Shown piece by piece: positions 5,301-54,819 of a DNA stretch of 64,000 bases. The stretch is from IMG/VR virus record IMGVR_UViG_3300045911_000760; one strand, given 5' to 3'. The position numbers and the translations under genes are program-made. Numbering within the stretch: the first letter of the stretch is position 1; each line of letters opens with the position of its first letter. This stretch comes from a virus. Its lineage: Duplodnaviria > Heunggongvirae > Uroviricota > Caudoviricetes. The notes beneath the pieces were generated by a model, which searched no databases, had not been told where the DNA came from, and saw only the letters and a list, made by a program, of their open reading frames with translations.

Positions 5301-6307
5301 GTGGTGAAGTTCCACTCGGCGGGGTCGTCGATCCCGCCCCACGGCTCGCCATCGTCCAGGGACTCGATTGCGCCGTCATCGACCAGGACGTGATAGGCGG
5401 TCTCGTGGTCGAGTGGCGCCGATAGCTCAAGCGTGACGGTCGACCCATCGAAGGTCGCGTCGGTCTCGACGTCCCACGCCTCGACCAAGCCCACGCCGGT
5501 CTCGTGGAGCTCGACGAAGCCCGCGCCCGCGGCGACGGACTGGTCGAACGTGAGCACCAGCTCCGCGTCGACCGAGACACCCGTGGCGTTGTCGGCCGGC
5601 GAGATCCCGGTGAGCACCGGGGGCTCGGGGTCTCCGCCGCCGCCCCCGGGCCCCCCGTCGCCTTCGACGAGCTCGCCGACGATGAACATCGGCCCGAGCC
5701 AGTTCGATCCGTCCTGCGTGAACCCGGGCGTCGTGGTGTCGCCGTACGCAGCTACGGCAACGTGGGGGTTGTCCTCCGGATCTGCCGGGTCAGGGACGCG
5801 CCCAACCTCGACAAGCGGGGAATCCCCTGTGAGGTCGAGACCGGGTGGCCCGAAGGCTCCGGCGAACGCTGTGGCGCGGTTCTCGGCGGCGCCGAACGTC
5901 GCCATCGTCGTGGTGAGCACACGGCGCAGGACGTCGGACTGCCCGTCTCGGTACGCGGCCGCGCCGTTGGGGAGGCTATCGTCGTAGCCGGACCACGCCT
6001 TGGCCACCCAGGCGACGCTTTCGAGTCCCGCGCCATACGCGATCGAAATCTGACCCGTGGCGTCGGACGTCGCCACGCCGCGGTAGCGCATCGCGTACTC
6101 CGCAAAGGAGCCGCCGTTCACCTCCAGTTCCCACTCGATGCCCAGCCCGGTCGGGGTGACCGTCGGCTCCGTCTCGCCGCCGAAGACGAGCAGGTCGAGC
6201 TCGATGAGCTCGCCAGCCACGACGGAGATCGACGCGGTCTGGACGGGGCTGGGCGTGTCCCAGCTCGCCGCCCTTCCGGCGGTGAGAAAGCGTACTGAAA
6301 GCGGCAT
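2366..6307 (-). CDS. large tail fibre / receptor-binding protein (1313 aa) with a tandemly duplicated N-terminal module
   Basis: Long ORF at the distal end of the tail/fibre cluster. It contains two copies of a roughly 250-aa module (WSGYDDSLPNGAAAYRDGQSDVLRRVLTTTMATFGAA / ITGYDDSSANGAAAYVQTSIVRGALTTTLSALGDAA) that includes an Ig-like SbsA-type segment (SPADNATGVSVDAELVLTFDQSV). The central region has an alkaline-phosphatase/sulfatase-like SDHG signature (LIFSDHGTNNVHLTDLG). A distinct about 100-aa C-terminal domain is present (DYGFNWSSW...RVTNRVTTDNTP). Confidence 0.6.
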   Translation of the reverse strand: MPLSVRFLTAGRAASWDTPSPVQTASISVVAGELIELDLLVFGGETEPTVTPTGLGIEWELEVNGGSFAEYAMRYRGVATSDATGQISIAYGAGLESVAWVAKAWSGYDDSLPNGAAAYRDGQSDVLRRVLTTTMATFGAAENRATAFAGAFGPPGLDLTGDSPLVEVGRVPDPADPEDNPHVAVAAYGDTTTPGFTQDGSNWLGPMFIVGELVEGDGGPGGGGGDPEPPVLTGISPADNATGVSVDAELVLTFDQSVAAGAGFVELHETGVGLVEAWDVETDATFDGSTVTLELSAPLDHETAYHVLVDDGAIESLDDGEPWGGIDDPAEWNFTTAAEAPPARSLEIRSLGGYEYSTDDYPEPKTGWLTVYEGELLELDIFTFGSDDVTPSGLGVTWVQVASGGSGGEFAQRWRGVVPASSESDPTITRGKIAFAYDGVTRLAFQARAITGYDDSSANGAAAYVQTSIVRGALTTTLSALGDAAHRVSATAAAFGPETLDLAPASPLTETGRSRVRLGNRFPVVHGWGVTTSPTFDQTGSSWQGPLLIASELAVGEGGPVDPSGSLPEPDDLGPSRTIVAFQIDGHSLTDERIPGDVRDIAIGEGLEVDYGRRYVIGASLEYRTAGGPPIAPAPDYVTWPGYRHGHNRAGENLDLVEHFRNVQAVAGRETARPYDALAFCEGHDLLQAIASHDTVPLARHIYELVREGSPDCVGYFYTTWLPYTVAGLSTWIAYARAKDLAHAAVCSRVNASLALEGRSDRLQILPVSGALAELVEQATTGTLAGITGATVDDTLALIFSDHGTNNVHLTDLGKYFAALVIYGTLYRRDPRGAIYPSTVTGEQAESLQQVAWETLLATFGDAPHLGPQFTATDAQQELVDFVDLYADVYDASPGHGQGDPERAMDRSAMASLLGGTSTAMYFSGDLEEDAEVWYPPPASSWVAVDELEAVEFGTASLVVSPLSLSAPLWGTPAVAVASTDVAGREHGAAALQLAALSASGLLLGSGAVGASVQAAAAPLLGPASAGVSTTAQVALELGLALIDSGALTVDALLALGLGTDVLRVATGQSAAVHGGPAVVVAAPAALEPHALRSPTLPLGATSLSALHHGPASAPLLATTAAARPFGPSTLVLTPAELVALSLGEAELIRLGFEFAALVGLQLGTDALSLRAATLVARELGAAVIAAAAGAFTPPPPTRFVSIEPELRTFSASSTMHQKTIVKDPDATLDYGFNWSSWLQADEEIAESSWTADGDELEIGSGAFAPQTDGSRTTVWLSGGVAGQKYRVTNRVTTDNTPPRTDERSFFVSVMDR

Positions 6308-6363: not shown

Positions 6364-7221
6364 TCACGCGCTGACAGCGCCGAGGCGGAACACACCGAGG
6401 GAGCTGTTCCAGCGGACCTCCTGGTCCGCCGTGGTCGTCAGCCCGCCACCGGGGAGCCCCTGCGCCTGTCGCTTGATCGCCACGAGTCGGCTCGTCCCAG
6501 CGCTGCCGGTGTCCAGGTAGAGCACCATCGCGACTCCGCCCGTGACCCCCGGGTCTCCCGGGAACGTGACGTCGTCGCCGTCGACCACGCCATCCACGAA
6601 GGTGAGGTTGTCGATTTCCTGCGGCGTGCCCGTGCGCTGCCCGGAGGGGACGTCGTCGAGGAAGTCGTGCCCCGCGGCGTACGTGTACGCGGCGGTGACG
6701 AAGAGCACCATCAGCGGCAAGGACGAGATGTCCGAGTTGGCCGGGCGCGAGAGCAGCGCTTCGGCGAACGCCGGATAGAGGTGGTTTTGCCCGCTCGTGA
6801 TGGCGATCGGGATCGCCGGGATCGTGACCGCCTGGTCCTCGGCGTCACCCGTGGGGGTTTCCGGGTCGGACTCGAGGAACTCGAGCGGGAGGTTCGGCGC
6901 GGAGTCGAAGTGCGCCACGAGCCGGCTCGTCCCAGCGCTGCCGGTGTCGATGTACAGGATCGCCTGCGTTGCCGTGTCGCCCGCGAGCCCCGCGCCCGAA
7001 TAGTCGGGCACCGTGAAGCCGAACGCTCCGCCCGTGTAGTCCTTGCTCGTGACCTCGACGGCGGTGCCGAGCACGCCCGTGACGTCGGACAGGAACTCGT
7101 GCGCGTCAGAGTAGCTGTAGGCGCTGGTCAGGAACGCGAACCGAACGGTGCCGCTGAGGGCGCTGTTTGCGGCGCGCGTGAGGGTCGCTTCGAGAAACTT
7201 CGGATACCACTTGTTCGACAT
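6364..7221 (-). CDS. hypothetical phage protein with internal tandem domain duplication
   Basis: 285-aa ORF with two related halves (SYSDAHEFLSDV...ILYIDTGSAGTSRLVAHFDSAPNLP versus YTYAAGHDFLDDV...VLYLDTGSAGTSRLVAIKRQAQGLP). It sits between the lysis genes and the large fibre. Confidence 0.45.
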   Translation of the reverse strand: MSNKWYPKFLEATLTRAANSALSGTVRFAFLTSAYSYSDAHEFLSDVTGVLGTAVEVTSKDYTGGAFGFTVPDYSGAGLAGDTATQAILYIDTGSAGTSRLVAHFDSAPNLPLEFLESDPETPTGDAEDQAVTIPAIPIAITSGQNHLYPAFAEALLSRPANSDISSLPLMVLFVTAAYTYAAGHDFLDDVPSGQRTGTPQEIDNLTFVDGVVDGDDVTFPGDPGVTGGVAMVLYLDTGSAGTSRLVAIKRQAQGLPGGGLTTTADQEVRWNSSLGVFRLGAVSA

Positions 7222-41170: not shown

Positions 41171-41633
41171 CTAGTCTTCGTGGCAGTCCGCTGCGACGGC
41201 ACGGCGCAAGCTGTCGAGGCTCTTTGCGAAGTGCTCCTGGCCACGCATGGCGTCGGCCTGCGACTCCTCCAGGAAGCGGACCTTCCGCTCTAGCTTCCGG
41301 AGCATCTTCGCCGTGGTTCGCTTGTGGGACACGTGGGAGTCTCTGAGGCCTTCGAGCTTCCTCGCGTTCTCCATCACGTGCTCTCGGAGCTCCTCGAGCT
41401 GGTCGATGGTCAGGCGACTCTGCTTCATGAGCAGGAGTGCCGCGGGGTTGACCCACCACTTCCGGACCTTCCGCCTGCTCCCCTGGAAGCTCACGAGCAC
41501 GCCGTCGTAGTCCTCATGGAGCGCGAGGAGCCGGCGCTTCATCTTCCAGACCGAGGTGCCGGCCTTCTCGGCCGCTTCCCGGATCGTGAGGAGGTCGTCC
41601 TCGCAGGGTTGGGGCAGGGCGGTTCTCACGCCT
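41171..41633 (-). CDS. HTH DNA-binding protein with C-terminal coiled coil
   Basis: GTG start preceded by GGAG. HTH-like LTIREAAEKAGTSVWKMKRRL. The N-terminal part of the listed ORF is low complexity. Confidence 0.4.
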
Positions 41634-42228
41634 TCTCCTTGGCGCTTGGTGCGTCGCTGTCCTCCCCGTTGGCCCATGCGGCGTATTGGGCACGCAGAGC
41701 GATGCGCCACTCCTCGTGGGCGCGCTGGTTCGCCTTCTGGGCGCGTCTCAGGGCGCCTTCGATCACCGCCTTCGCCGCGGTGTCGCTCGCGTTCGAGCAC
41801 GCCTTGATGACCTTCGCGGCGTCGGGAGCGAGGAACAGGGCGAGGCCCGCGAGGGGACCGAACCACCCCTCCACACCAGCGGGCCAGTCGCTGCGGGTCG
41901 TGTAGCGGACCAGGAGGCGGTCCTGGGTGGTTGGGGAGATGCGTCGCCAGACCTTCTGCAGGCGTCGGGCCTTCTCGATCTCCCCGACGAAGTGCCGGCG
42001 CTCGCCGTCGGGTGTCTCGCCCCAGCCGAGCTGCTCGTCGGAGTACAAGTCGACGTTCGGGACGCCGGAGGGGCCGATCGAGCCTTGCTGGGCAATGTTG
42101 ATCACGGCGGCCATGGTGCCGCGCTCGCCAAGCGCCGACGCCGCGCGGTTCACCCACCACTCGACGTCTCTGTCGAGTTCGGCGGCTACCTGATGCTTCG
42201 TTTCTGTTGTTTGTCCGGGATCTGCCAT
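41626..42228 (-). CDS. hypothetical protein
   Basis: About 200 aa from the internal Met (MADPGQTTE); non-biased composition. Confidence 0.4.
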   Translation of the reverse strand: MADPGQTTETKHQVAAELDRDVEWWVNRAASALGERGTMAAVINIAQQGSIGPSGVPNVDLYSDEQLGWGETPDGERRHFVGEIEKARRLQKVWRRISPTTQDRLLVRYTTRSDWPAGVEGWFGPLAGLALFLAPDAAKVIKACSNASDTAAKAVIEGALRRAQKANQRAHEEWRIALRAQYAAWANGEDSDAPSAKEKA

Positions 42229-42329
42229 GTTACGCTCCTGCTCGGCTGCGAGCGGCATGGCTCGGGAAACCCTCACCGTTGGGATGCGGTGGGGGTTTTC
42301 GCTTTCGGGAGGACGTGCATCCCAGGGCC

Positions 42330-42791
42330 CTACCGTTTCGGTAGCTGCGGTGGTGGGGGAGACGCAGGAGTTTTGGGCTCCAGTTGCCGTAGACCCTTTG
42401 CCCCACTCAGCAGTGCTCCACGAAGAGACTGTCGCATCAGGAACTCAGTGCGATCCTGGGGCGTGAGACCTTCCAGATGCCTGGTCTGCAGTCGAGAACT
42501 CGCCTTGCTGGACCGCTTCGCCGCCCCGGTGATTCTGGAGTCGCGTAGGCGAACGATGTCGATCGTGTTCCTTGGATCCGAGAAGCGCACCCCGCTCCCA
42601 GGGAGGGGGAAGTACTCCCGGTTGCGTTTGCGCATCGCTCGCCGGAAGAGTTCGCGTCCCCGGGCGTTCATCTGCACACCGCTGAGTTGCTCGATCTCGA
42701 CCCAGGACACAGTGGTCCCGTCTCCTGTCTGATCGATAAAGCTCAGGAGCGCCTCGGTGTCTGCCTTACGTTCTTGGTTCGGTTCGAACAT
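42330..42791 (-). CDS. hypothetical protein
   Basis: 154 aa from the internal Met (MFEPNQERK). The upstream part of the listed ORF runs into the repeat region and is unlikely to be coding. Confidence 0.4.
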   Translation of the reverse strand: MFEPNQERKADTEALLSFIDQTGDGTTVSWVEIEQLSGVQMNARGRELFRRAMRKRNREYFPLPGSGVRFSDPRNTIDIVRLRDSRITGAAKRSSKASSRLQTRHLEGLTPQDRTEFLMRQSLRGALLSGAKGLRQLEPKTPASPPPPQLPKR

Positions 42792-42799
42792 CTGAGCCT

Positions 42800-43230
42800 C
42801 GCTTTGCTGTCGAAAGAGGAAACCTTGCCTTGTGTTGCCAAGCCCCGCCGTGACAAGCCGGGCAATGCCGTGCCGCGCTTGGGTGCCCCTCCGGGTTTTC
42901 ACACCTCGAAGGGGCGAGCTTCCTTGCCTTGTCTTGCCGTGCTCTGCCAAGCCACGCCGATACCTGCCTAGTCACGCCGAGTCGGAGTCGATGGGGCGGG
43001 AGTCGAACCCGCCTACACCGGTCCATCGAAAGAACCTTGCCTTGTGTTGCCGCGCCGAGCCGCGCCGTGCCGGGCCGCGCCTCGCCCAGCCTAGCTCTGC
43101 CTCATTCAGTGCCCCACCGAGCTTTCACACTCGTCGGGGCGTTCCTTGCCTTGTGTTGCCGCGCCATGCCGCGCCGCGCCGCGTCCTGCCTAGCCCTGAC
43201 CTGACATGTCGGGCCTATGAAATCCTAGCT
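42800..43230. repeat. non-coding repeat region: 4 copies of the 17-mer CCTTGCCTTGT(G/C)TTGCC arranged as two roughly 200-bp units
   Basis: 17-mer copies at 42823-42839, 42921-42937, 43035-43051 and 43144-43160, with spacing 98/114/109 bp. Each pair is embedded in related context (TTCACAC(C/T)CG..GGGGCG and GC-rich GCCGCGCC tracts). Local GC is lower than the genome. No ORF. Confidence 0.6.
42988..43029 (-). other. tRNA-like minihelix (acceptor stem + canonical T-arm, no D/anticodon arms)
   Basis: The minus strand reads TCGATGG-accggtgta-GGCGGG-TTCGACT-CCCGCC-CCATCGA. This is a 7-bp acceptor-like stem enclosing a T-stem and a canonical TTCGA T-loop. It lies between repeat copies 2 and 3. Confidence 0.45.
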
Positions 43231-43805
43231 CTCCAGCCATTCCAGTTTTGCAACAGTGAACCGGCCGTAGAAGCCGCAACTCTCGGGGCGAAACCTTCCG
43301 ATCCCGACGAGCTTCCCAGCGTATTCCAAGACTTCTTGGAACACCTTCACATCGATGAGCGGGTCGAGGATGTAGAAGTCCACGGTGCCGCCCCATGCGT
43401 CGATGCGGGGGAAGAGCTTCGTCACCCGCTTCCCGCTTCCACGAACCCCGTCGGACGGGACGAACAGTTCGTCTGCGGGCACGTCTTCAGCTCGGACATC
43501 GAGCACAAGGGGATCTATCACCATGACGCCCGCCTCGAAGCTCTTGGTGTAGGTCTTCTGCCCCTTTCCAGGAACTCGCAGCCCCAGCCGCTTCGCGGCT
43601 TGCTTGACGGCGTTCGCGAACACCATCGGCGGGATGAAGACCAGGCCGTCTTTGGTGACATGCATGCGATGTCGCCACGTTCTGCGTTCGTACGCGTCGT
43701 GGAGTTCACGCTCCTTGGGGGGAACCTCCTCCTTCGAGTAGTGCCTACTTTGCGAGTATGCCCCGTCACTGACGAGTGATGCGCGCGCGATGATCTGCTT
43801 CATGG
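43225..43805 (-). CDS. hypothetical protein (193 aa)
   Basis: ATG preceded by AAGGAAG on the minus strand; non-biased composition. Confidence 0.45.
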
Positions 43806-43966
43806 GGACTTCCTTTGCTCTTGCCTCGTTGTTACCTTGGTCACTCGAGAACGAACCCACGGCCCCCGAGCAATGGTGCTTCGGGGGCCACTTTCGTTTC
43901 AGACCGCTGTTGGCTCCTCGGGTTCCGTGAGGCCCACGTCGGCGGGGATCGGATCGCTCACCCGCT

Positions 43967-44290
43967 TCACGCCTTGCCCCCAGGCGCGTTGACGCCGCCG
44001 CCCTTGCCCATGTTGGCGAGACTCAACTCGGCGAGCTTCCGCCCCAACTCGTCCGCAGTGGACCCGCTCTGCTTCACGACCTGGGAGAGCCCCACGAGCC
44101 CCTCGATGGCCTTCTGCCGCGCCTCGGGGAGCTCGAGCGCGAACCGCTTGGCGACGTACAGGGTGAGCTCGGCACCAAACTCGCCCATCTCGTCCACCAG
44201 GGGCCGGACCTGCTCGTAGGGGAAGCCGTAGTGGACGGCGAGGCGGCTCGCGATGGCCCAGGCTCGGATGCGGGAGAGGAGCTTCTTCAT
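43967..44290 (-). CDS. hypothetical protein
   Basis: 107-aa ORF with ATGA-type overlap to the upstream gene. Confidence 0.35.
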   Translation of the reverse strand: MKKLLSRIRAWAIASRLAVHYGFPYEQVRPLVDEMGEFGAELTLYVAKRFALELPEARQKAIEGLVGLSQVVKQSGSTADELGRKLAELSLANMGKGGGVNAPGGKA

Positions 44291-44505
44291 CCGGACCTCC
44301 GCTCGGGCTTGAATGTCAGCGGCCCGGTGGGCAACGACGGCAGCGTGCCATTCCGGATGCAGCGCTCGGTGAAGTCGCGGATCTGCATCGACTGTTCGAG
44401 GTCCACCGCGGCTCGTTGAACCTTCAGCTCGGCTTCCCGGAGTTCGGCGCGCGCCTTCTCTAGGGTGAGCTGCTTGAACTCGCGTTCGACGGACGAGTCG
44501 TTCAC
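44287..44505 (-). CDS. small hypothetical coiled-coil protein
   Basis: 72-aa ORF overlapping its neighbours. Confidence 0.35.
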   Translation of the reverse strand: MNDSSVEREFKQLTLEKARAELREAELKVQRAAVDLEQSMQIRDFTERCIRNGTLPSLPTGPLTFKPERRSG

Positions 44506-45014
44506 CTCGGCATCCTCCTCACCCGGTCGATGTACTCCTCTTCGGACTCGCCCCGCTCACGCAGCGGAAGCAGTTGCGTCGCCACCTTGAGCAAGAGTTG
44601 CTCACCCGTGAACTCAATGGTCGGTCTCGGGATGAGGCCGGCGCGGACAAGGGCTTCCCGTGTGACGCCGGCGCGTTCGGCCCAGGCCCGAAGGGCACGG
44701 TCCTGTAGTTCGGTGCAGGCGCGACTCACCTCGTACCCGAAGTCCGACGCTGAGCCCGCGGGCACCCCAAGGCGGGTGACAAGCGAACCCGGTTCGGTGG
44801 CCTCGCCGAGAAGCTCTGGTGGCTTCTGCGCTTGCTCCCACATGCGCCTCGCCTCCACCGTGAGTCGCTCGATGTCCTCCGTGGTAAGTTCGAATTTTTC
44901 GCCAGGGCGCCAAACCGTGAGTAGGTATGAGGTGCCCAGGAGTACCGCAACGCCGATCTCTCCACGGTCCAGAGTGAGGTCGATGGTTGCTTCGATTTTG
45001 TGTGTGGTGCTCAT
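44502..45014 (-). CDS. hypothetical protein
   Basis: Internal Met start (MSTTHKIEATIDL); about 170 aa. Confidence 0.4.
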   Translation of the reverse strand: MSTTHKIEATIDLTLDRGEIGVAVLLGTSYLLTVWRPGEKFELTTEDIERLTVEARRMWEQAQKPPELLGEATEPGSLVTRLGVPAGSASDFGYEVSRACTELQDRALRAWAERAGVTREALVRAGLIPRPTIEFTGEQLLLKVATQLLPLRERGESEEEYIDRVRRMPR

Positions 45015-45457
45015 GAACGTCTCGTTGTCTTGGAGAGGGCTTCCAGGCACGCCTCGGCGACCATCGACTCAAACGTGGTCCGGTCGCCGATTCTGCGGAG
45101 GTGCATTCGGGAGCGGTGGCGCAAGCGGGATAGCCGGCGCTTCTTCACGCGGCGGGAGCGGTGCTCGCACTGGAGCAGAAGCGCCATCGCCGCGATCTGC
45201 GCCATCGCGCTCCGGGTCGTCTTGAGGCCCGCTTTCAACATCTGGAGGGCCGCTTGGAGCGACTGGGCCTCGTCATCCGTTGGCTGGAACTGCACCTCAC
45301 CCACGACCAGAGGTTCGTCCCTCAAGTCGCCCGCAACCGGGGGCTCTGCGGGCGCGCCAGCCGCCCGCAGCTCGACCGTCCCGATGCCCTTGGCCACCTC
45401 ACGCCCGCCGATCCGGATGCTCAGGTCGCGCGCTGCGTGTACCTCAGCCACAGTCGA
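45011..45457 (-). CDS. hypothetical protein (148 aa)
   Basis: GTG start 7 nt after a GAGGAGG SD on the minus strand; overlaps the sigma-like gene stop. Confidence 0.35.
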   Translation of the reverse strand, partial: STVAEVHAARDLSIRIGGREVAKGIGTVELRAAGAPAEPPVAGDLRDEPLVVGEVQFQPTDDEAQSLQAALQMLKAGLKTTRSAMAQIAAMALLLQCEHRSRRVKKRRLSRLRHRSRMHLRRIGDRTTFESMVAEACLEALSKTTRRS

Positions 45458-45863
45458 CCTCCTCGTCTGCAACCCCCAAGTCGAACTCCGCCGGGAGCGC
45501 CGGCCCGTCTCCCGCCATCTCCTCGAACACACCACCCAGGGGCTCGCCGTGGAGCGTGTTCAGCCGCTGCAGCGCTCGCCCCTCGAGCTGGCGGATCCTC
45601 TCCCGGGTCACTCCGAACAGTTCGCCCACCTCCAAGAGGGAGCGAGGGCCACGGTCCGCAACGTCGAGCGAACAGGTCTCCTTCAGTTCGTGGAGCTCCT
45701 TATCGGGGAAGGCGTACGCGATGCCGCCGGTGGCGGTCACCTCAATGAACAGGTGATGTCTGCAGCTCATGAACGGGCACGGTCGCACCCCGCCCACACA
45801 CTCGCCCCGCGTCTTCGGACGTCGATGCTGCTCGATCGGTCCCTCGAGCAGGACCAGCCGGCG
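45444..45863 (-). CDS. sigma-70 region-4-like HTH regulator (candidate late-gene activator)
   Basis: Internal Met start (MRRLVLLEG). Cys/His cluster CPFMSCRHH. The C-terminus, LEVGELFGVTRERIRQLEGRALQRL, matches sigma-70 region 4.2. Confidence 0.4.
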   Translation of the reverse strand, partial: RRLVLLEGPIEQHRRPKTRGECVGGVRPCPFMSCRHHLFIEVTATGGIAYAFPDKELHELKETCSLDVADRGPRSLLEVGELFGVTRERIRQLEGRALQRLNTLHGEPLGGVFEEMAGDGPALPAEFDLGVADEEVDCG

Positions 45864-45898
45864 CATGTCCCGGGCGGATTCGGTGCGCGCCCCCTTCT

Positions 45899-46456
45899 TC
45901 ACCGCTTCGCCCTCCGCTTCGCCTGAGCCTTGGCCGACTTCACCCGCGCCGCGGCGGCCACGAGCGCCGGGTGAGCTGGAACGGCGCCAGCCGCCACGCC
46001 AATGCAGACCGCGTCGCTGCGGTTCAGACCGATGCGCCCCTTCGGCCAACCCAGCACTCGGGTCATCGCTGCGGTCCGGCACTCCTCCTTCGAAGCCGTG
46101 GAGCGCCCGGTCATCGCCCTCCGCCAGGTCTGCCCCGTCACCCCGACAAAGGGGATCCTGCGGATCTTCGCGAAGAGCCGCGCCTGACCGACCGAGTCCA
46201 GGATGAGGCCCGACCCGTTGCCCCGCTTCACCTCCGGGTCCTTCGTGTGGAGCGACCAGTCCACCTCCTCGTAGGCGCACACATCCACGTGAATTCCCGA
46301 GTGGTGGATCTCGGCCAGCTCCGCCGCCAGGTCGTCCAACGAGTGCAGGACTGGCAAACGAAGAATGCTCCAGCGCTGACCTTCCTTTGCCTGGAGCGCA
46401 AGGGCTGGGCTGGAGAAACCGGGGTCGAGCGAGAGAACCACGAACATGCCGCTCAC
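45899..46456 (-). CDS. RuvC-like Holliday junction resolvase
   Basis: N-terminal VVLSLDPGFSSPALAL (catalytic Asp context) and C-terminal SDAVCIGVAAG, giving a RuvC-like pattern. Confidence 0.6.
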   Translation of the reverse strand: MSGMFVVLSLDPGFSSPALALQAKEGQRWSILRLPVLHSLDDLAAELAEIHHSGIHVDVCAYEEVDWSLHTKDPEVKRGNGSGLILDSVGQARLFAKIRRIPFVGVTGQTWRRAMTGRSTASKEECRTAAMTRVLGWPKGRIGLNRSDAVCIGVAAGAVPAHPALVAAAARVKSAKAQAKRRAKR

Positions 46457-47319
46457 TTCACCTGCAGCATCGGGATCGGCCCCGACCCGGTGTAGTGCGG
46501 AAGCTGGCCGTTCCAGCGCTCGGCGATGCGGAGCTGGATCAGGTTGGGGTTCGCCTCGAGCGCCTTCGATTCGCGGGCGATTGCCTCGGCTCGCGCCTTC
46601 GACTCGACCTCCGTCTTGAAGGCGATCGACTCGGCCGACAGCCGGCGCTCGGCGGCTTCCGCCTCCGCTTGGGTCACCCGCTTCTTCTTCTCGTTCTCCG
46701 CCTTCAAAGCCTCTTGCTCGGCCTTCACCTTCTGCTCGATGGCGTGGTTGAACTCTGGGGAGAACTCGAAGTCGGTCACCGCCACGTTGGCTAGGCGAAC
46801 GGCGCCCTGGATGTCCTTGTCACGCAAGGTCTTGTCGACGAATTCGGCAATTGCTCGCTCGATTCCACCCTTCACTTCGGCGCGGTGCGTGATGAGCCGC
46901 TCCGCGTTGTAGAGACTCGTGACGGACTTCACACTTTCCTGGATTGCTGGCTTCAGGAGCGCAGCCTCGGCCGCTTCCGAGAAGCCAAACCGCTGCGCCA
47001 TCCGCGGCGCGAACCCAGGCTGGATGCTGTACTGAACCGTCACCGCGGTTTCGACGACCTGCAGGTCCTTCGACGCCGCTTTCGCGTCCTGGCTGATCGC
47101 GCGCATCTTCACGTCGACCTTGTCGACGCTCGCCCATGGGCGGAGGAAGTGCATGCCCTCGGGGAGGGTGTACGGCTGCACGGCACCGAAGTGCTTCACG
47201 ACTCCGACGTGTCCGGAGTCGATGGTTGAGCAGCTTGTTACGAGGCAAACGAGGCTCACCAGCGCGAGTAGCGCGGCGAGGATGATGCCGGAGGGAACGT
47301 CGTCGTCGTGTCGTGACAT
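46453..47319 (-). CDS. SPFH / band-7 (prohibitin/HflC-like) membrane protein
   Basis: N-terminal TM segment. SPFH core (VVKHFGAVQPYTLPEGMHFLRPW...). Ala/Glu-rich coiled-coil C-terminus (KAEQEALKAENEKKKRVTQAEAEAAERR). Confidence 0.7.
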   Translation of the reverse strand: MSRHDDDVPSGIILAALLALVSLVCLVTSCSTIDSGHVGVVKHFGAVQPYTLPEGMHFLRPWASVDKVDVKMRAISQDAKAASKDLQVVETAVTVQYSIQPGFAPRMAQRFGFSEAAEAALLKPAIQESVKSVTSLYNAERLITHRAEVKGGIERAIAEFVDKTLRDKDIQGAVRLANVAVTDFEFSPEFNHAIEQKVKAEQEALKAENEKKKRVTQAEAEAAERRLSAESIAFKTEVESKARAEAIARESKALEANPNLIQLRIAERWNGQLPHYTGSGPIPMLQVK

Positions 47320-47365
47320 TGGTGTGCTGGTCCTTTCAAGTGCACAGAGATGCCATATGGCAGCA

Positions 47366-48112
47366 CTATCCGCGAGGGAAATCGTCTTTGGGGCCGTCTC
47401 GGTCGGGGTCGCCCGGATCGAACGCTTCGATGACTGCTGCCCCCTGAATCATCCGCCGGGCCACTGCGTCGCCGTAGACGCGCCGCAGTCTCCCCACGCC
47501 CCAGTTGCTTGTGATGATTGTGGGGTTCGGCAGGTCGTAGCGGGCGGCGAGCAGCCCGGCGATCAGCTTGTGGTCCCCCTCCCAGCCGACTTCGTCGAGG
47601 AACAGGAGCTTCGCGTAGACCGCGTCGCGGTACATGTCGCACTCGCCCTTGCCGAGCGGGTGGGCCCGCACCTCGCGCTCGAGCTGCTGGGCGCGGACCC
47701 ACCGCATGCCCTGGGCCCGAACCCACGGGTCGCCGCCACCGTACCAGGCGTCACGTAGCAAGCGCCGGAACAGGATGCCTGCGGCAGTGGACTTGCCTTT
47801 GCCGGTGGACCCGAGGAGCAGGAGGTTTCCACCTCCCCAGTTCCACTTCAGCGCGGCATCGAGGAGTTCCCGCGAGGTGACCCAGGAGGCGAGTTCCGAG
47901 GCCTTGGGTGCCACCAGGAAGCGCGGGAGTCGGTCCCGGATGACGGATGACTCCGACCAGCGGGCATGGCGTTCTGAGCGCCGCAGCGCCTCGGGATCGG
48001 GCCCGGGCGGCGGGTTGGCCATGGCGTCCCGGAGCCACGCTGGGAGGGCGTCCTCGAGCGGCGCAGGTGCGTCCTCCGGGGACATGTGCTGGGGCTTCGT
48101 CCCGTCCGTCAT
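47366..48112 (-). CDS. DnaC/IstB-like AAA+ helicase loader
   Basis: Walker A GSTGKGKS and Walker B LLFLDEVG. Internal Met start (MTDGTKPQH) has an ATGA overlap with the upstream replication gene. Confidence 0.7.
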   Translation of the reverse strand: MTDGTKPQHMSPEDAPAPLEDALPAWLRDAMANPPPGPDPEALRRSERHARWSESSVIRDRLPRFLVAPKASELASWVTSRELLDAALKWNWGGGNLLLLGSTGKGKSTAAGILFRRLLRDAWYGGGDPWVRAQGMRWVRAQQLEREVRAHPLGKGECDMYRDAVYAKLLFLDEVGWEGDHKLIAGLLAARYDLPNPTIITSNWGVGRLRRVYGDAVARRMIQGAAVIEAFDPGDPDRDGPKDDFPRG

Positions 48113-49002
48113 CGCTTCGCTCCGTGCCGGGCCAGGAAGTCGTCGGTGCTCACGGTCTGGTCGGTCGCTGGGAGCGGTGAGGCGCGCGCGTGCCGAGGCG
48201 GCGGAGCCTTCCCGAGCATCTCGTCGCGCTTCTTCGGGTCGTTCCACCAAGCCGTGAGGGTCGTGATGAGCGACCGCCTCCAGGCGCCGAGTGGCCTCTC
48301 GGCCTGGCTCGCAAATCGAGCCCGAGCCCAGGGCGTTGCGCGTTCGATGGCGTGCCTAGGAATCCCCGGGCTCTGCTCCAGTTGGGCGCACTCCGGGTCT
48401 GTCAGCACTAGGTCGGGGGGGCATGGGACCTTGCCCGTCGGCGGCTCGTCTGGGACTGGAGCCGTTGACGAGGTCCCCCCTGCACCCCCCTCAGAACAAA
48501 CATCTCCAGATCCAACACCAACACCATCACCAGAGTGACGCGGTGATGGTTGCGAGATGCCCAGTGATGCGTCACCTGGCGTCACCGGAGCTTGTGACGC
48601 GTCACGAGTCGGGTCGTGCGACTGGTCGGTAGTTTCCTCTTTCGCCCGAGAGTCCCTCCACTTGCGGGTACGTTTGGCTCCGGGCGACTCTGGATCGCCT
48701 TTACGCTCGCGGAAGCGCGGATGGTTCAGGATCGTCCAGCCGCCCTCGGTTGGCGCGATGCGTCGCCCTTCGTAGTCTCCGTTTCGCGAGTCGGGGTCCG
48801 GAGAGGAGAGCACTTGGAGTGCGCGGAGGCACTCCTCCCTGGAGCAGTTCGCGCGTCGTGCGAGCCCTGAGACGGAGGCGGAGACGATTCCCCGCTTGCC
48901 GCCCATCGCCAGCATCGTGATCCACACGATTCGTGTCGCGTGGTCCTCCAGCCAGATGCTGGAGTCGAGGATCTCCTCGTACAGCTTGACGTACCCGCTC
49001 AC
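48109..49002 (-). CDS. replication initiator / replisome organiser (N-terminal phage replisome-organiser HTH domain)
   Basis: N-terminus MSGYVKLYEEILDSSIWLEDHATRIVWITMLAMGGKRGIVSASVSGLARRANCSREECLRAL matches the Phage_rep_org_N pattern. Directly followed by the DnaC-like gene. Confidence 0.6.
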   Translation of the reverse strand: MSGYVKLYEEILDSSIWLEDHATRIVWITMLAMGGKRGIVSASVSGLARRANCSREECLRALQVLSSPDPDSRNGDYEGRRIAPTEGGWTILNHPRFRERKGDPESPGAKRTRKWRDSRAKEETTDQSHDPTRDASQAPVTPGDASLGISQPSPRHSGDGVGVGSGDVCSEGGAGGTSSTAPVPDEPPTGKVPCPPDLVLTDPECAQLEQSPGIPRHAIERATPWARARFASQAERPLGAWRRSLITTLTAWWNDPKKRDEMLGKAPPPRHARASPLPATDQTVSTDDFLARHGAKR

Positions 49003-49676
49003 GAGTTAGCCTCCTCGGTGCTGCCATTTGGCAGCGCCATAGACGCACGTGGGCCTTCGTAGAAGCGCGCCCGCCTCATCACGGGCCGGAGCTCCCCGCC
49101 TCCGAACGCCACCTGCAGCTTCTCCCAGTCGTCGTCCTTGCCGCCCCGGGCCATGACCTTCCTGCCCACGACGAGTTCGAACTCCCCGGTGGGGACCCTC
49201 TCTGGGTAGAGTGAGTGCCGGGTGCTCCGTCGCTGCCTGGCCTGTTCCTCGGGCGTAGGGCGCCCCTGGAGCGCTCCGGAGGTCTCATGCTCCGAAGCTG
49301 CGTCCGGCGCCGGCGGGCTGTCCCCTGGGCGCCTGGGAGGCCTGGGTATGTAGCGGGGCTTGCGCTGCTCCGGGGGGAGTTTGGGCCGACCGAGCTTCAT
49401 GCAGGCCTCGCAGGCCAGGGTGCACTCGATGCCACGGGCCGTGGTGCGTCGCACGAACTGCCGCATGTACTTCAGGGCGAGGTCACGGGTTCCCGTGCCG
49501 CACTTCGTGCAGGCGCAGTGCCAAACGACTCCCATGCCGGGCTCGATGCGGAGCGGGTAGCGTGGGGCAAGGAACCCGAACGTCTCTCCGGAGGCGTCTC
49601 GGACGTGGACCTTGGGGTTGTTGCCGGCAAGCTTGATGAGCTGGGCTCGGATGTCGAGTTCTGGGGCCGGTGTCAT
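48999..49676 (-). CDS. hypothetical protein with a Cys cluster (possible zinc-binding)
   Basis: 225 aa; CACTKCGTG...CTLACEAC. Confidence 0.4.
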   Translation of the reverse strand: MTPAPELDIRAQLIKLAGNNPKVHVRDASGETFGFLAPRYPLRIEPGMGVVWHCACTKCGTGTRDLALKYMRQFVRRTTARGIECTLACEACMKLGRPKLPPEQRKPRYIPRPPRRPGDSPPAPDAASEHETSGALQGRPTPEEQARQRRSTRHSLYPERVPTGEFELVVGRKVMARGGKDDDWEKLQVAFGGGELRPVMRRARFYEGPRASMALPNGSTEEANS

Positions 49677-53635: not shown

Positions 53636-54819
53636 GAAGCCTCTCCGAACAGAGAAACCTGCCGGTTCTGCTCGAGCGGCAGGCAGTGGGGGCTGAACCA
53701 GATCCGCTCCTTTGAGCGGTTGTCGTTGCCCTCGGCGGCGTACCCGCGGGGCGCCTTCCAGGCGTACTCGCGCCACGTTGGTGGCATCTCGTGCTCACCC
53801 TCGTAGCCGCAGAGCGCGATCCGTAGGTCCGGGTCATCCCCGTGATCGAGCGCCCACTCGCGGACCCTGGAGGAGATCGCCGCCTCGTCCTCGGTGTAGA
53901 GGTACCGGCAGCGGAGGTCCAAGTCGTATGGCGGGTCGAGGAACACCGCGCATGGGCGGCGCCCCCCTACATTCTTGCCCTTGCCCAATACGCTGGGACC
54001 GAGCACCCGCGTCCAATCCCCGCAGGCAACACGAACCCGACGGAGACGCTCCTGCAGCCGGAGAAACCACTCCTCGCAAGGCGCGGCCGCAACCCCGTTC
54101 AGTCCGCGGTCGTTGCCCAGAGCAGTTAGGTGGACCCCCTGGCCCGCCTGTGAAAGAGCAGGGCGACGTCCAGGCGAGTAGGCGGCGCGCAAGGCCTCGT
54201 CCGAGTGGACTCCTCGGCCCGGGTTGTCCCCGGACATCACGGGGCGCTTCTGGTGGGTTCCGGAGTGGACTCCTCGCCCTGAGTGCATCCCGTTCCGCGT
54301 GGTGACGGCGAGGTCCGGGAGCTGGCGCTTCGGCTCGTAGCCCGCCTGGGAGTGCACACCCTTCCCGATTCCGTCCAGCTTGGGATGTTTCCTGTTCCGT
54401 GGCTCAGCGCACCAGCCGCCGCCGATCCACTGGCAGATGCCCCACACCCACCAGCCCGCAACCTTGGCGTCGTAGTAGTCCGGGTCGATGTGCATGCGCT
54501 CCCTGAACTCGTGCTGATTCACGAGCCAGAGGTGACGCGCGTGCATGTCCGCTTCGTTCACCGGGTAGTCGCACCACTCGGCCACCGCCCACGGGTCGTG
54601 CGTGATCGCACGCCAGAAGTTGGCGACGTAGCGGTCGATGTCGTTGACGGTCTCGATCTTCCCGGGGCCGCCCGGGCGAGCCAGGAGCACGGCGCCACTA
54701 CCAAAGAACGGTTCAACATAGTTGTTGATCGACGGTCCGAAGGCTTTCCAGACAACGTCTGCAACCCGCCTCTTCCCGCCGAACCAAGGAAAGGGCGCTC
54801 GTAGCGACTGCTCCGTCAC
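53632..54819 (-). CDS. DNA adenine methyltransferase, D12 (Dam-like) class, with an internal tandem-repeat insertion
   Basis: N-terminal FPWFGGKRR...EPFFGSGAV and catalytic FLDPPY. A central insertion carries 4x G(K/R/Q)GVHS repeats encoded by direct DNA repeats. Confidence 0.7.
   Translation of the reverse strand: MTEQSLRAPFPWFGGKRRVADVVWKAFGPSINNYVEPFFGSGAVLLARPGGPGKIETVNDIDRYVANFWRAITHDPWAVAEWCDYPVNEADMHARHLWLVNQHEFRERMHIDPDYYDAKVAGWWVWGICQWIGGGWCAEPRNRKHPKLDGIGKGVHSQAGYEPKRQLPDLAVTTRNGMHSGRGVHSGTHQKRPVMSGDNPGRGVHSDEALRAAYSPGRRPALSQAGQGVHLTALGNDRGLNGVAAAPCEEWFLRLQERLRRVRVACGDWTRVLGPSVLGKGKNVGGRRPCAVFLDPPYDLDLRCRYLYTEDEAAISSRVREWALDHGDDPDLRIALCGYEGEHEMPPTWREYAWKAPRGYAAEGNDNRSKERIWFSPHCLPLEQNRQVSLFGEAS

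What the first reader, a model, noticed from the sequence alone, without database searches (positions are those of the whole stretch)
42800..43230. Structured non-coding island: 4x 17-mer repeats at roughly 100-bp periodicity flanking a tRNA-like T-arm/acceptor minihelix
About 430 bp without ORFs inside an otherwise tightly packed minus-strand operon. CCTTGCCTTGT(G/C)TTGCC occurs four times (42823, 42921, 43035, 43144) within two related roughly 200-bp units. Between copies 2 and 3 the minus strand folds into a 7-bp acceptor-like stem enclosing a canonical T-arm (GGCGGG-TTCGACT-CCCGCC), with no D or anticodon arms. It could be a replication origin (iterons at about 10-turn spacing), a cluster of small RNAs, or an attP-like core or remnant of a tRNA integration target. 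It could also be a tRNA-like element recognised by RNase P, CCA-adding enzyme or an aminoacyl-tRNA synthetase. The GC content is clearly lower than the genome average.
Basis: seen in the sequence. Interest (0 to 1): 0.75.

Follow-up and report, generated by a model that had tools for sequence, protein, structure and literature searches.

The report
VIPR guide-RNA array in a prophage
The 430-base "non-coding island" is a row of four guide RNAs built from five-base GGC-NN repeats. It belongs to a phage VIPR system, a CRISPR-like RNA-guided DNA-silencing system first described in 2026, and a tRNA-like hairpin between two guides probably helps cut them apart.

Summary

In about 165 related loci I found 258 such arrays on the gene strand and 10 on the other.

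The T-arm/acceptor minihelix is also real. Equivalent minihelices with different stem sequences sit 5-7 nt after vrRNA handles in two other loci, and nowhere else in 2.2 Mb. The preprints do not mention this. I infer that it recruits host tRNA-processing enzymes to separate guides.

The origin/iteron and attP readings are rejected, and GC content is not lower than the window average. No natural DNA target was found. Verdict: a new member of a known kind, with a possibly new processing variant.

The parts
43225..43803 (-). vipr gene: a 192-aa RAMP-fold protein, one protomer predicted to bind each repeat
43144..43208 (-). vrRNA-a: 10 variable C-NN-GG units (the first two degenerate) plus the handle CAACACAAGGCAAGG (43144-43158)
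43111..43140 (-). hairpin H1a (GCCCC..CGAG-UGUGAAAG-CUCG..GGGGC) between vrRNA-a and vrRNA-b
   Evidence: MFE -20.2 kcal/mol, z -4.3. Hairpins in the same position, with different stems, occur in L089, L090 and L304.
43035..43104 (-). vrRNA-b: 11 variable units plus the handle (43035-43049)
   Evidence: TRF detects period 10/15 here.
42988..43029 (-). tRNA-like minihelix: 7-bp acceptor-like stem, 9-nt linker containing GGU, 6-bp T stem and UUCGACU loop. It starts 5 nt after the vrRNA-b handle.
   Evidence: This is the minimum-energy fold. Equivalent elements lie 5-7 nt after handles in L090/L091 and L255, and there are no other matches in 2.24 Mb. 12 of 12 pairs are kept and 10 of 12 carry compensatory changes.
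42922..42981 (-). vrRNA-c: 9 variable units plus the handle variant CAAGACAAGGCAAGG (42922-42936)
42885..42915 (-). hairpin H1b (GCCCCUUCGAGG-UGUGAAAA-CCCGGAGGGGC) between vrRNA-c and vrRNA-d
   Evidence: MFE -23.4 kcal/mol, z -4.7. It is 86% identical to H1a over 22 nt (D3).
42823..42882 (-). vrRNA-d: 8-9 variable units plus the handle (42823-42837). The vap ribosome-binding site (GAGG) follows about 20 nt downstream of the handle.
42330..42791 (-). vap (vipr-accessory) gene: a 153-aa protein with an N-terminal winged-helix-like domain

Best explanation
The island is the guide-RNA array of a prophage-encoded VIPR (Viral Interference Programmable Repeat) system.

Proposed mechanism:
- The minus strand is transcribed together with vipr (43225-43803) and vap (42330-42791).
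- The transcript carries four vrRNAs. Each has 8-11 variable C-NN-GG pentamers followed by the constant handle CAA(C/G)ACAAGGCAAGG.
- By homology with the SUSP1 system, one Vipr protomer binds each repeat. It sequesters the GGC and exposes the NN dinucleotides.
- The NN dinucleotides together read a double-stranded DNA target of the form (x-NN)n, skipping every third base.
- Binding represses transcription of the target, most likely in a competing phage or prophage. The winged-helix-like Vap assists.
- The spacers are two conserved hairpins and one tRNA-like minihelix. They most likely define or protect the RNA ends. I infer that the minihelix is cut by host RNase P, with 3' tRNA-processing enzymes acting on the other side, which releases neighbouring guides from the polycistronic transcript.

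Shown here: the repeat anatomy, strand bias, conservation of the handle, RAMP fold, homology to SUSP1 Vipr, linkage to vap, and recurrence of the minihelix.

Taken from the preprints (SUSP1 and P. fulva systems only): RNA expression, filament formation, the 1-nt skip rule and repression.

Inferred: that this locus is active, what it targets, and the processing role of the spacers.
For: 1. Repeat anatomy. GGC spacings are 5 or 10 nt throughout the four arrays, and the arrays decompose into C-NN-GG units plus a handle.
2. Unit composition in 237 unique arrays from related loci. Position 1 is C 87% and T 7%, and was not imposed by the detector. Positions 2-3 are near-uniform. The median is 12 units, with a 10th-90th percentile range of 8-19. 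This matches the published definition of 9-16 YNNGG repeats with conserved GGY and hypervariable NN.
3. Strand bias. 143 against 7 arrays, then 258 against 10 with the metagenome loci added, lie on the vipr strand. Most directly flank vipr or vap.
4. Handle. 144 of 229 unique arrays end in CAAGG, preceded by CAAG(G/A) and CA(A)NN. The exact 17-mer recurs in contigs of 48-51% GC.
5. Protein. The fold is RAMP/Cas7 and the protein is homologous to the SUSP1 protein that lies between GGT-NN arrays, one upstream and three downstream, as the paper describes.
6. vap is conserved next to vipr and is winged-helix-like.
7. The context is a myovirus-like prophage with terminase, portal, capsid, sheath, tape measure, baseplate and helicase genes. 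An identical protein lies on a 705,807-bp contig.
8. No self-target in the window reaches 80% NN match (best 15 of 20), as the paper reports for its systems.
9. There is no sigma-70-like promoter or intrinsic terminator on the minus strand inside the island, which fits co-transcription followed by processing.
Against: - There are no expression data for this locus.
- No significant DNA target was found. IMG/VR exact scans gave 0, 1, 8 and 2 hits for guides b, c, d and a, which is at chance level.
- Several repeats are degenerate (GT, GA or AG instead of GG), so some guides could be decaying.
- Two SUSP1 guanine-contacting residues, R138 and D177, align with F131 and R170 here, so the recognition details differ.
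- The 3' tail differs from the SUSP1 pseudoknotted tail.
- The VIPR type (I-VII) could not be assigned, because the paper's figures and tables are not held.
- The match between vap and SUSP1 vap1 is weak (63%).
Confidence: 0.9

Rival explanations
1. It is a DNA-level element: a replication origin or partition site whose 17-mers are iterons bound by an initiator or centromere-binding protein.
For: There are four near-identical 17-mers at regular spacing. The island lies between the replication genes (helicase, DnaC-like loader, RuvC) and the packaging genes.
Against: - Arrays are almost exclusively on the sense strand in about 165 loci (258 against 10).
- The repeats have a 5-nt period, and the two variable positions are near-random. 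That does not suit a sequence-specific double-stranded-DNA binder.
- The island is not AT-rich (65.5% GC).
- The linked protein has an RNA-binding RAMP fold.
- Homologous arrays in SUSP1 are expressed as about 100-nt RNAs that co-purify with Vipr.
Confidence: 0.02
2. The T-arm/acceptor hairpin is a remnant of a tRNA integration target (an attP core or scar), and the repeats are unrelated debris.
For: Phages often integrate into tRNA 3' ends. The T-loop UUCGACU and the G53-C61-type closing pair are canonical.
Against: - Both acceptor strands are present, with only a 9-nt linker. An att core keeps only the 3' part of the tRNA.
- Equivalent elements with entirely different stems occur 5-7 nt after vrRNA handles in L090/L091 and twice in L255, which also has a third variant. 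These are the only 4 unique matches in 2.24 Mb.
- None of the ORFs scanned around the island (41171-48250) matched an integrase family.
- The host tRNA set was not available, so identity to a host tRNA could not be tested.
Confidence: 0.02
3. The arrays act mainly in cis, as protein-binding leaders in the manner of TRAP. Vipr would coat its own mRNA to control vap translation or mRNA stability, rather than guiding DNA recognition in trans.
For: The last array ends about 20 nt before the vap ribosome-binding site. In L003 and other loci arrays end 15-20 nt before an RBS and ATG. The triplet-plus-2-nt geometry resembles TRAP sites (my own knowledge).
Against: - Hypervariable NN positions and multiple different arrays per locus are not needed for autoregulation.
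- Some relatives give each array its own promoter (L081: a 12/12 sigma-70 consensus between arrays).
- The SUSP1 and P. fulva systems work in trans on DNA.
- This could be a secondary effect. It does not exclude the main explanation.
Confidence: 0.05

Closest known systems
VIPR systems (Vipr + vap + vrRNA), bioRxiv 10.64898/2026.04.26.720920 and 10.64898/2026.04.26.720927. Type II of phage SUSP1 and a P. fulva prophage is the experimentally characterised example.
   Same: - A RAMP-fold protein of about 190 aa, homologous to SUSP1 Vipr.
- A two-gene operon with a small DNA-binding-like accessory gene.
- Flanking arrays of 9-16 Y-NN-GG pentamers with a constant 3' end.
- A phage or prophage location, no CRISPR array, and no self-target.
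   Different: - GGC rather than GGT repeats.
- The 3' end is a repeat-like handle, CAACA-CAAGG-CAAGG (NN = AA three times), not the SUSP1 hairpin/pseudoknot tail.
- All four guides lie between vipr and vap.
- The spacers are hairpins and a tRNA-like minihelix.
- BLAST-level similarity to SUSP1 Vipr is absent; only the profile comparison detects it.
- The type was not assigned.
Hammerhead-ribozyme-interspersed vrRNA arrays (VIPR types I and V, fig. S19 of the first preprint)
   Same: A structured RNA module sits between adjacent guides and is presumed to separate them.
   Different: Here the module is a tRNA-like acceptor/T-arm minihelix that would depend on host tRNA-processing enzymes, not a self-cleaving ribozyme. 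Rfam finds no ribozyme in 42000-44000.
Class 1 CRISPR effector backbones (Cas7/Csm3/Cmr4 filaments on crRNA)
   Different: The period is 5 nt with 3 sequestered bases, not 6 nt with 1 flipped base. The guide is non-contiguous. There are no repeat-spacer array, no cas1/cas2, and no other cas genes. PADLOC, NCBIfam and Pfam models do not match.
TRAP (trp RNA-binding attenuation protein) binding sites: 9-11 (G/U)AG triplets separated by 2-3 nt (my own knowledge)
   Same: A conserved triplet plus a 2-nt spacer is repeated about 11 times in RNA, with one protein subunit per repeat.
   Different: The triplet is GGC. The protein has a RAMP fold and forms a filament rather than an 11-mer ring. The spacers carry information instead of being irrelevant.
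tRNA-like processing modules such as MALAT1/mascRNA, gammaherpesvirus 68 tRNA-miRNA units and engineered tRNA-gRNA arrays (my own knowledge)
   Same: A tRNA-like structure placed next to a functional RNA, so that RNase P and RNase Z generate the RNA's ends.
   Different: Here only the acceptor stem, a short GGU-containing linker and the T arm are present, with no D or anticodon arms. Cleavage has not been shown.

Membership tests
VIPR system | Homology to an experimentally characterised Vipr (SUSP1) | tested here: met
   hhalign of the 41-sequence family profile against the 195-aa SUSP1 protein (KT454805.2 28474-29061) gives probability 96.9%, E 1.5e-10, over 119 columns. I identified that SUSP1 protein as Vipr because GGT-NN arrays lie on both sides of the two-gene locus, one upstream of this gene and three downstream of the adjacent 146-aa gene, as described in the paper.
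VIPR system | vrRNA: 9-16 tandem YNNGG repeats with conserved GGY and hypervariable NN, on the gene strand | tested here: met
   The window has four arrays of 11-14 units, counting the handle. Family logo: C/T 94%, N, N, G, G, with a median of 12 units. 258 against 10 arrays lie on the gene strand.
VIPR system | Invariant 3' tail after the repeat tract | tested here: met
   The handle CAA(C/G)ACAAGGCAAGG is present at all four arrays and its consensus is shared across the clade. It differs from the SUSP1 tail, and no common structure or pseudoknot was found downstream.
VIPR system | Minimal locus: vipr plus one accessory gene (vap) predicted to interact with DNA, with no CRISPR array or cas genes | tested here: met
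VIPR system | Viral or proviral location | tested here: met
   Terminase, portal, protease, capsid, sheath, tape measure, baseplate, helicase and helicase-loader genes surround the locus.
VIPR system | vrRNAs are expressed as discrete RNAs of about 100 nt and co-purify with Vipr | not testable with these tools
   This needs small-RNA sequencing or RNP pull-down. Only indirect support is available: sense-strand orientation, and no internal promoter or terminator.
VIPR system | The NN dinucleotides match a DNA target under the 1-nt skip rule (at least 80% NN match), and there is no self-target | tested here: inconclusive
   No self-target in the window (best 15 of 20). Exact-match scans of IMG/VR returned only chance-level numbers of hits. 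The host pangenome was not available, and mismatch-tolerant scans of the large collections are not possible with these tools.
tRNA gene | A cloverleaf with D arm, anticodon arm, T arm and acceptor stem | tested here: not met
   ARAGORN finds no tRNA in the window and there is no Rfam tRNA hit at E <= 10. Only the acceptor-like stem, the T arm and a 9-nt linker are present.
Iteron-type replication origin | Directly repeated Rep-binding sites next to an AT-rich unwinding element and a rep gene, acting as duplex DNA (no strand preference across relatives) | tested here: not met
   Repeats are present, but the island is 65.5% GC. The arrays are strand-specific in relatives. The adjacent proteins are a RAMP-fold protein and a small winged-helix protein.
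CRISPR array | Identical repeats of 24-48 nt alternating with unique spacers of similar length, with adjacent cas genes | tested here: not met
   The unit is 5 nt. The constant 15-17-mer occurs once per guide. There are no cas gene hits.

The most novel reading that the evidence does not exclude
In a subset of VIPR loci (this window, L090/L091 and L255), guides are separated by minimal tRNA mimics: an acceptor stem, a GGU-containing linker that could mimic the D-loop, and a T arm. These mimics would hand vrRNA maturation to host RNase P and 3' tRNA-processing enzymes. That would be a third array-processing architecture, besides the staggered and hammerhead-interspersed arrays described so far. 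In addition, this clade caps its guides with a repeat-like AA-AA-AA handle, probably read by Vipr protomers themselves, instead of a folded tail.
Probability: 0.4. Interest if true: 0.6.

Novelty: new member of a known kind. Interest (0 to 1): 0.55.

Why it matters
VIPR is a newly described way of recognising DNA. An RNA guide is read two bases at a time along a filament of a protein that appears to be older than CRISPR.

This locus shows the system in an uncultivated, 67%-GC myovirus-like prophage that is only distantly related to the two characterised examples.

It defines a clade-wide 15-nt 3' handle, conserved from 36% to 67% GC, that could be used to annotate vrRNAs automatically.

It also suggests that some phages use host tRNA-processing machinery to mature their guides. 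If that is confirmed, the minihelix would be a compact natural part for multiplexing programmable vrRNAs. It would also give a clue to how guide arrays were processed before dedicated Cas6-type nucleases existed.

Tried and rejected
- blastn of the island (distant mode) and tblastn of Vipr against 50,697 phage records found no match. The closest cultured terminase is below 50% identity.
- Rfam at E <= 10 found nothing relevant. ARAGORN found no tRNA.
- Pfam, PADLOC and NCBIfam have no family for Vipr or vap.
- An early TRAP-like ring-protein idea was replaced once the RAMP fold and the preprints were found.
- The pattern ACAAGG-N(8-38)-GGTTCGACTCC in IMG/VR returned only ordinary tRNAs, none behind an array. 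That scan was wasted.
- The genome-contig scan with the single protein returned one 1.4-kb contig already in hand, so the host was not identified.
- MAFFT could not align the minihelices with their variable linkers, so I aligned them with the linkers removed.
- Target searches by the 1-nt skip rule were made in the window, in 2.35 Mb of fetched loci and in IMG/VR. No hit exceeded chance. The 67%-GC hit L294 (16 of 16 bases scanned, 17 of 18 with one more unit) and the portal-gene hit L292 are recorded only as leads.
- The idea that the H1 hairpins are minihelices with a 3' ACCA end holds in L089 and L090 but not in L304 or the window, so it is left open.

Full report
**1. What is in the sequence**

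The island is the 433-bp gap 42792-43224 between two minus-strand genes. The upstream gene is 43225-43803 and the downstream gene is 42330-42791.

The copies are at 42823, 42922, 43035 and 43144. Shuffles allowing up to 3 mismatches gave a mean of 0.09 matches, and none of 100 reached 4.

The claim of lower GC content is wrong: the island is 65.5% GC and the window 66.7%.

The decisive feature was missed. On the minus strand, GGC recurs at spacings of 5 or 10 nt throughout. Each 17-mer is the 3' end of an array of 8-11 variable pentamers C-NN-GG. The array ends in three pseudo-repeats, CAACA-CAAGG-CAAGG.

Three local structures lie between the arrays:
- Hairpin H1a (43111-43140), folding z-score -4.3.
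- The T-arm/acceptor minihelix (42988-43029).
- Hairpin H1b (42885-42915), folding z-score -4.7.

The island as a whole folds no better than shuffled sequence (z -0.25). ARAGORN and Rfam find nothing. There is no sigma-70-like promoter or intrinsic terminator on the minus strand inside the island.

**2. Comparative evidence**

The exact 17-mer also occurs in IMG/VR contigs of 48-51% GC (L002, L003). There too it closes NNGGC arrays, next to a homologue of the 43225-43803 protein that is 48% identical.

I fetched 80 viral and 80 metagenomic loci through that protein. Results from these loci:
- 258 arrays lie on the gene strand and 10 on the other. Most directly flank the gene or its neighbour.
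- In 237 unique arrays the unconstrained first position is C 87% and T 7%. The two middle positions are close to uniform. The median length is 12 units.
- 144 of 229 unique arrays end in CAAGG, preceded by CAAG(G/A) and CA(A)NN and followed by a U/A-rich stretch.
- Even a 36%-GC phage (L066) carries long GGC arrays with this handle.

**3. The proteins**

*The 192-aa protein (43225-43803).* It has no Pfam, NCBIfam or PADLOC family and matches only phrog_4652, annotated 'unknown function'. It has more than 1250 homologues.
- An AlphaFold model built with 41 sequences is confident: pLDDT 93.8.

*The downstream 153-aa protein (42330-42791).* It evolves fast.
- jackhmmer links it to 136 ORFs in the related loci, most of them adjacent to vipr.

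**4. Identification**

A literature search found two 2026 bioRxiv preprints that describe VIPR systems. According to them:
- VIPR is a phage-borne two-gene locus, with vipr (a RAMP homologue) and vap.
- It is flanked by vrRNAs of 9-16 YNNGG repeats with an invariant 3' tail.
- One Vipr protomer binds each repeat, sequestering GGY and presenting NN.
- The NN dinucleotides pair with double-stranded DNA while skipping every third base.
- The complex represses transcription of competing phages and prophages.

I located the SUSP1 locus in KT454805.2. A 195-aa gene and a 146-aa gene lie between GGT-NN arrays, one upstream and three downstream, as the paper describes.

The window's protein family matches the SUSP1 195-aa protein by profile comparison: 96.9%, E 1.5e-10, including the G-loop. 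The vap family matches SUSP1 vap1 only weakly: 63%, E 7e-5.

The window is a myovirus-like prophage or phage, with terminase, portal, capsid, sheath, tape measure, baseplate and helicase genes. It has no close cultured relative, and an identical Vipr lies on a 705-kb contig.

Every VIPR-defining feature that can be tested from sequence is met. Expression and targeting cannot be tested here.

**5. The tRNA-like minihelix**

I searched with a strict descriptor:
- a 7-bp stem;
- a 4-20-nt linker;
- a 5-6-bp stem closed by G-C;
- a 7-nt loop of the form NTYRANN;
- a contiguous 3' strand.

It finds only four unique matches in 2.24 Mb (both strands). All four lie 5-7 nt after a vrRNA handle:
- the window;
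- L090/L091, whose Vipr is 76% identical;
- L255, twice, whose Vipr is 56% identical. L255 has a third variant with a 9-nt loop, so each of its three guides is followed by one.

With the linkers removed, all 12 helix positions pair in all four sequences, and 10 of 12 carry compensatory changes. That pairing was a condition of the search, so the independent evidence is the position. Positions just after a handle make up about 0.15% of the sequence searched.

All four fold to the same minimum-energy shape. The linkers share a GGU, which resembles the D-loop G18-G19 that docks on the T-loop in real tRNAs (my own knowledge).

Neither preprint mentions tRNA or RNase P. They do describe hammerhead-interspersed arrays.

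I infer, without a direct test, that the minihelix is a substrate for host RNase P and 3' tRNA-processing enzymes, and that it separates neighbouring guides.

The H1 hairpins have counterparts in the same position in L089, L090 and L304. In L089 and L090 they are followed by ACCA, but this is not general. Their role is open. They may protect RNA ends or serve as processing sites.

Some relatives instead give each guide its own promoter. L081 has a perfect TTGACA-17-TATAAT between arrays.

**6. Targets**

Under the 1-nt skip rule no site in the window reaches 80% NN match; the best is 15 of 20. The preprint likewise reports no self-targeting.

Exact-pattern scans of IMG/VR gave 0 hits for guide b (20 bases), 1 for guide c (18 bases), 8 for guide d (16 bases) and 2 for guide a (18 bases). 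These numbers are close to chance. The natural target is unknown.

**7. Verdict**

The origin and att interpretations are rejected, and the small-RNA and tRNA-like readings are on the right track.

The locus is a new member of the recently described VIPR kind. Its handle differs from the SUSP1 tail, and it may use a new, host-dependent mode of guide processing.

Noticed in passing
L081 5738-7042 (promoter at 5805-5833): In this 49%-GC relative a perfect sigma-70 consensus promoter (TTGACA-17-TATAAT, 12/12) sits between two vrRNA arrays. At least this guide appears to have its own promoter, rather than being processed from an operon transcript.
   Followed up: partly
L066 5680-5960 and 7030-7590: A 36%-GC phage contig carries eight GGC-pentamer arrays of up to 25 units, each ending in CAAAACATAGCAAGGCAAGG followed by UAUUUUAUGAUCA. 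The GC-rich arrays stand out sharply from the AT-rich genome.
   Followed up: partly
L086 2800-3270 and 3840-4090; L052 1900-2330: Relatives at 34-35% GC have pentamer arrays built on AGT/AGC-type triplets instead of GGC, ending in ...ATCGCAAGG/CACAAGG followed by a C-rich 'CCCCC' stretch. This may correspond to the alternative repeat consensus mentioned in the preprint.
   Followed up: no
L307 3370-3900 and L308 981-1511: Here a Vipr 65% identical to the window's is followed, after the arrays, by an HNH_3 endonuclease gene where the other loci examined carry the winged-helix vap. Closely related Viprs may therefore pair with different accessory genes.
   Followed up: no
L013 9117-9312; L082 5813-5978; L085 7663-7833: Uninterrupted runs of 32-36 pentamers, well above the 9-16 units reported. 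These may be fused or staggered guides.
   Followed up: no
L089 1040-1075, L090 1010-1055, L304 990-1020: The H1-type hairpins after the first guide share a loop motif, GAGAUGACUU(U)CAAA. In L089 and L090 they are followed by ACCA, like a tRNA 3' end. The window's H1 hairpins have a different loop (UGUGAAA) and are followed by ACUG and ACCC.
   Followed up: partly
L294 (IMGVR_UViG_2974780946_000001), plus-strand coordinates 6512-6534: A 67%-GC viral contig matches guide d at 16 of 16 specified bases (17 of 18 with one more unit), inside a 729-aa ORF with the skipped bases at the codon wobble position. One such hit is expected by chance, so this is kept only as a lead for the natural target.
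   Followed up: partly
window 43804-43966: The 160-bp gap upstream of vipr has no recognisable pentamer array, unlike L089, L090, L304 and L305, which have a guide there. It does contain a strong hairpin, GGCCCCCGA...UCGGGGGCC.
   Followed up: no
window 45444-47319: The early region upstream of the VIPR locus encodes a sigma-70 region-4 protein, a RuvC-like resolvase and an SPFH/Band-7 protein. A phage sigma factor could drive the operon, given that no sigma-70-type promoter is seen near the island.
   Followed up: no
L091 / L211 (CAZCMS010000057.1): The only genome-collection hit is a 1.4-kb contig binned in a 'Candidatus Saccharibacteria' MAG. It carries vipr, three guides and the minihelix. 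A stray phage contig in the bin seems more likely than a true Saccharibacteria locus.
   Followed up: no
window 54219-54268 (+) and 49136-49170 (-): Two weak 6-unit in-phase GG runs lie inside coding regions. They are at the level seen in shuffles (mean 1.6 per window), so they are probably chance.
   Followed up: yes
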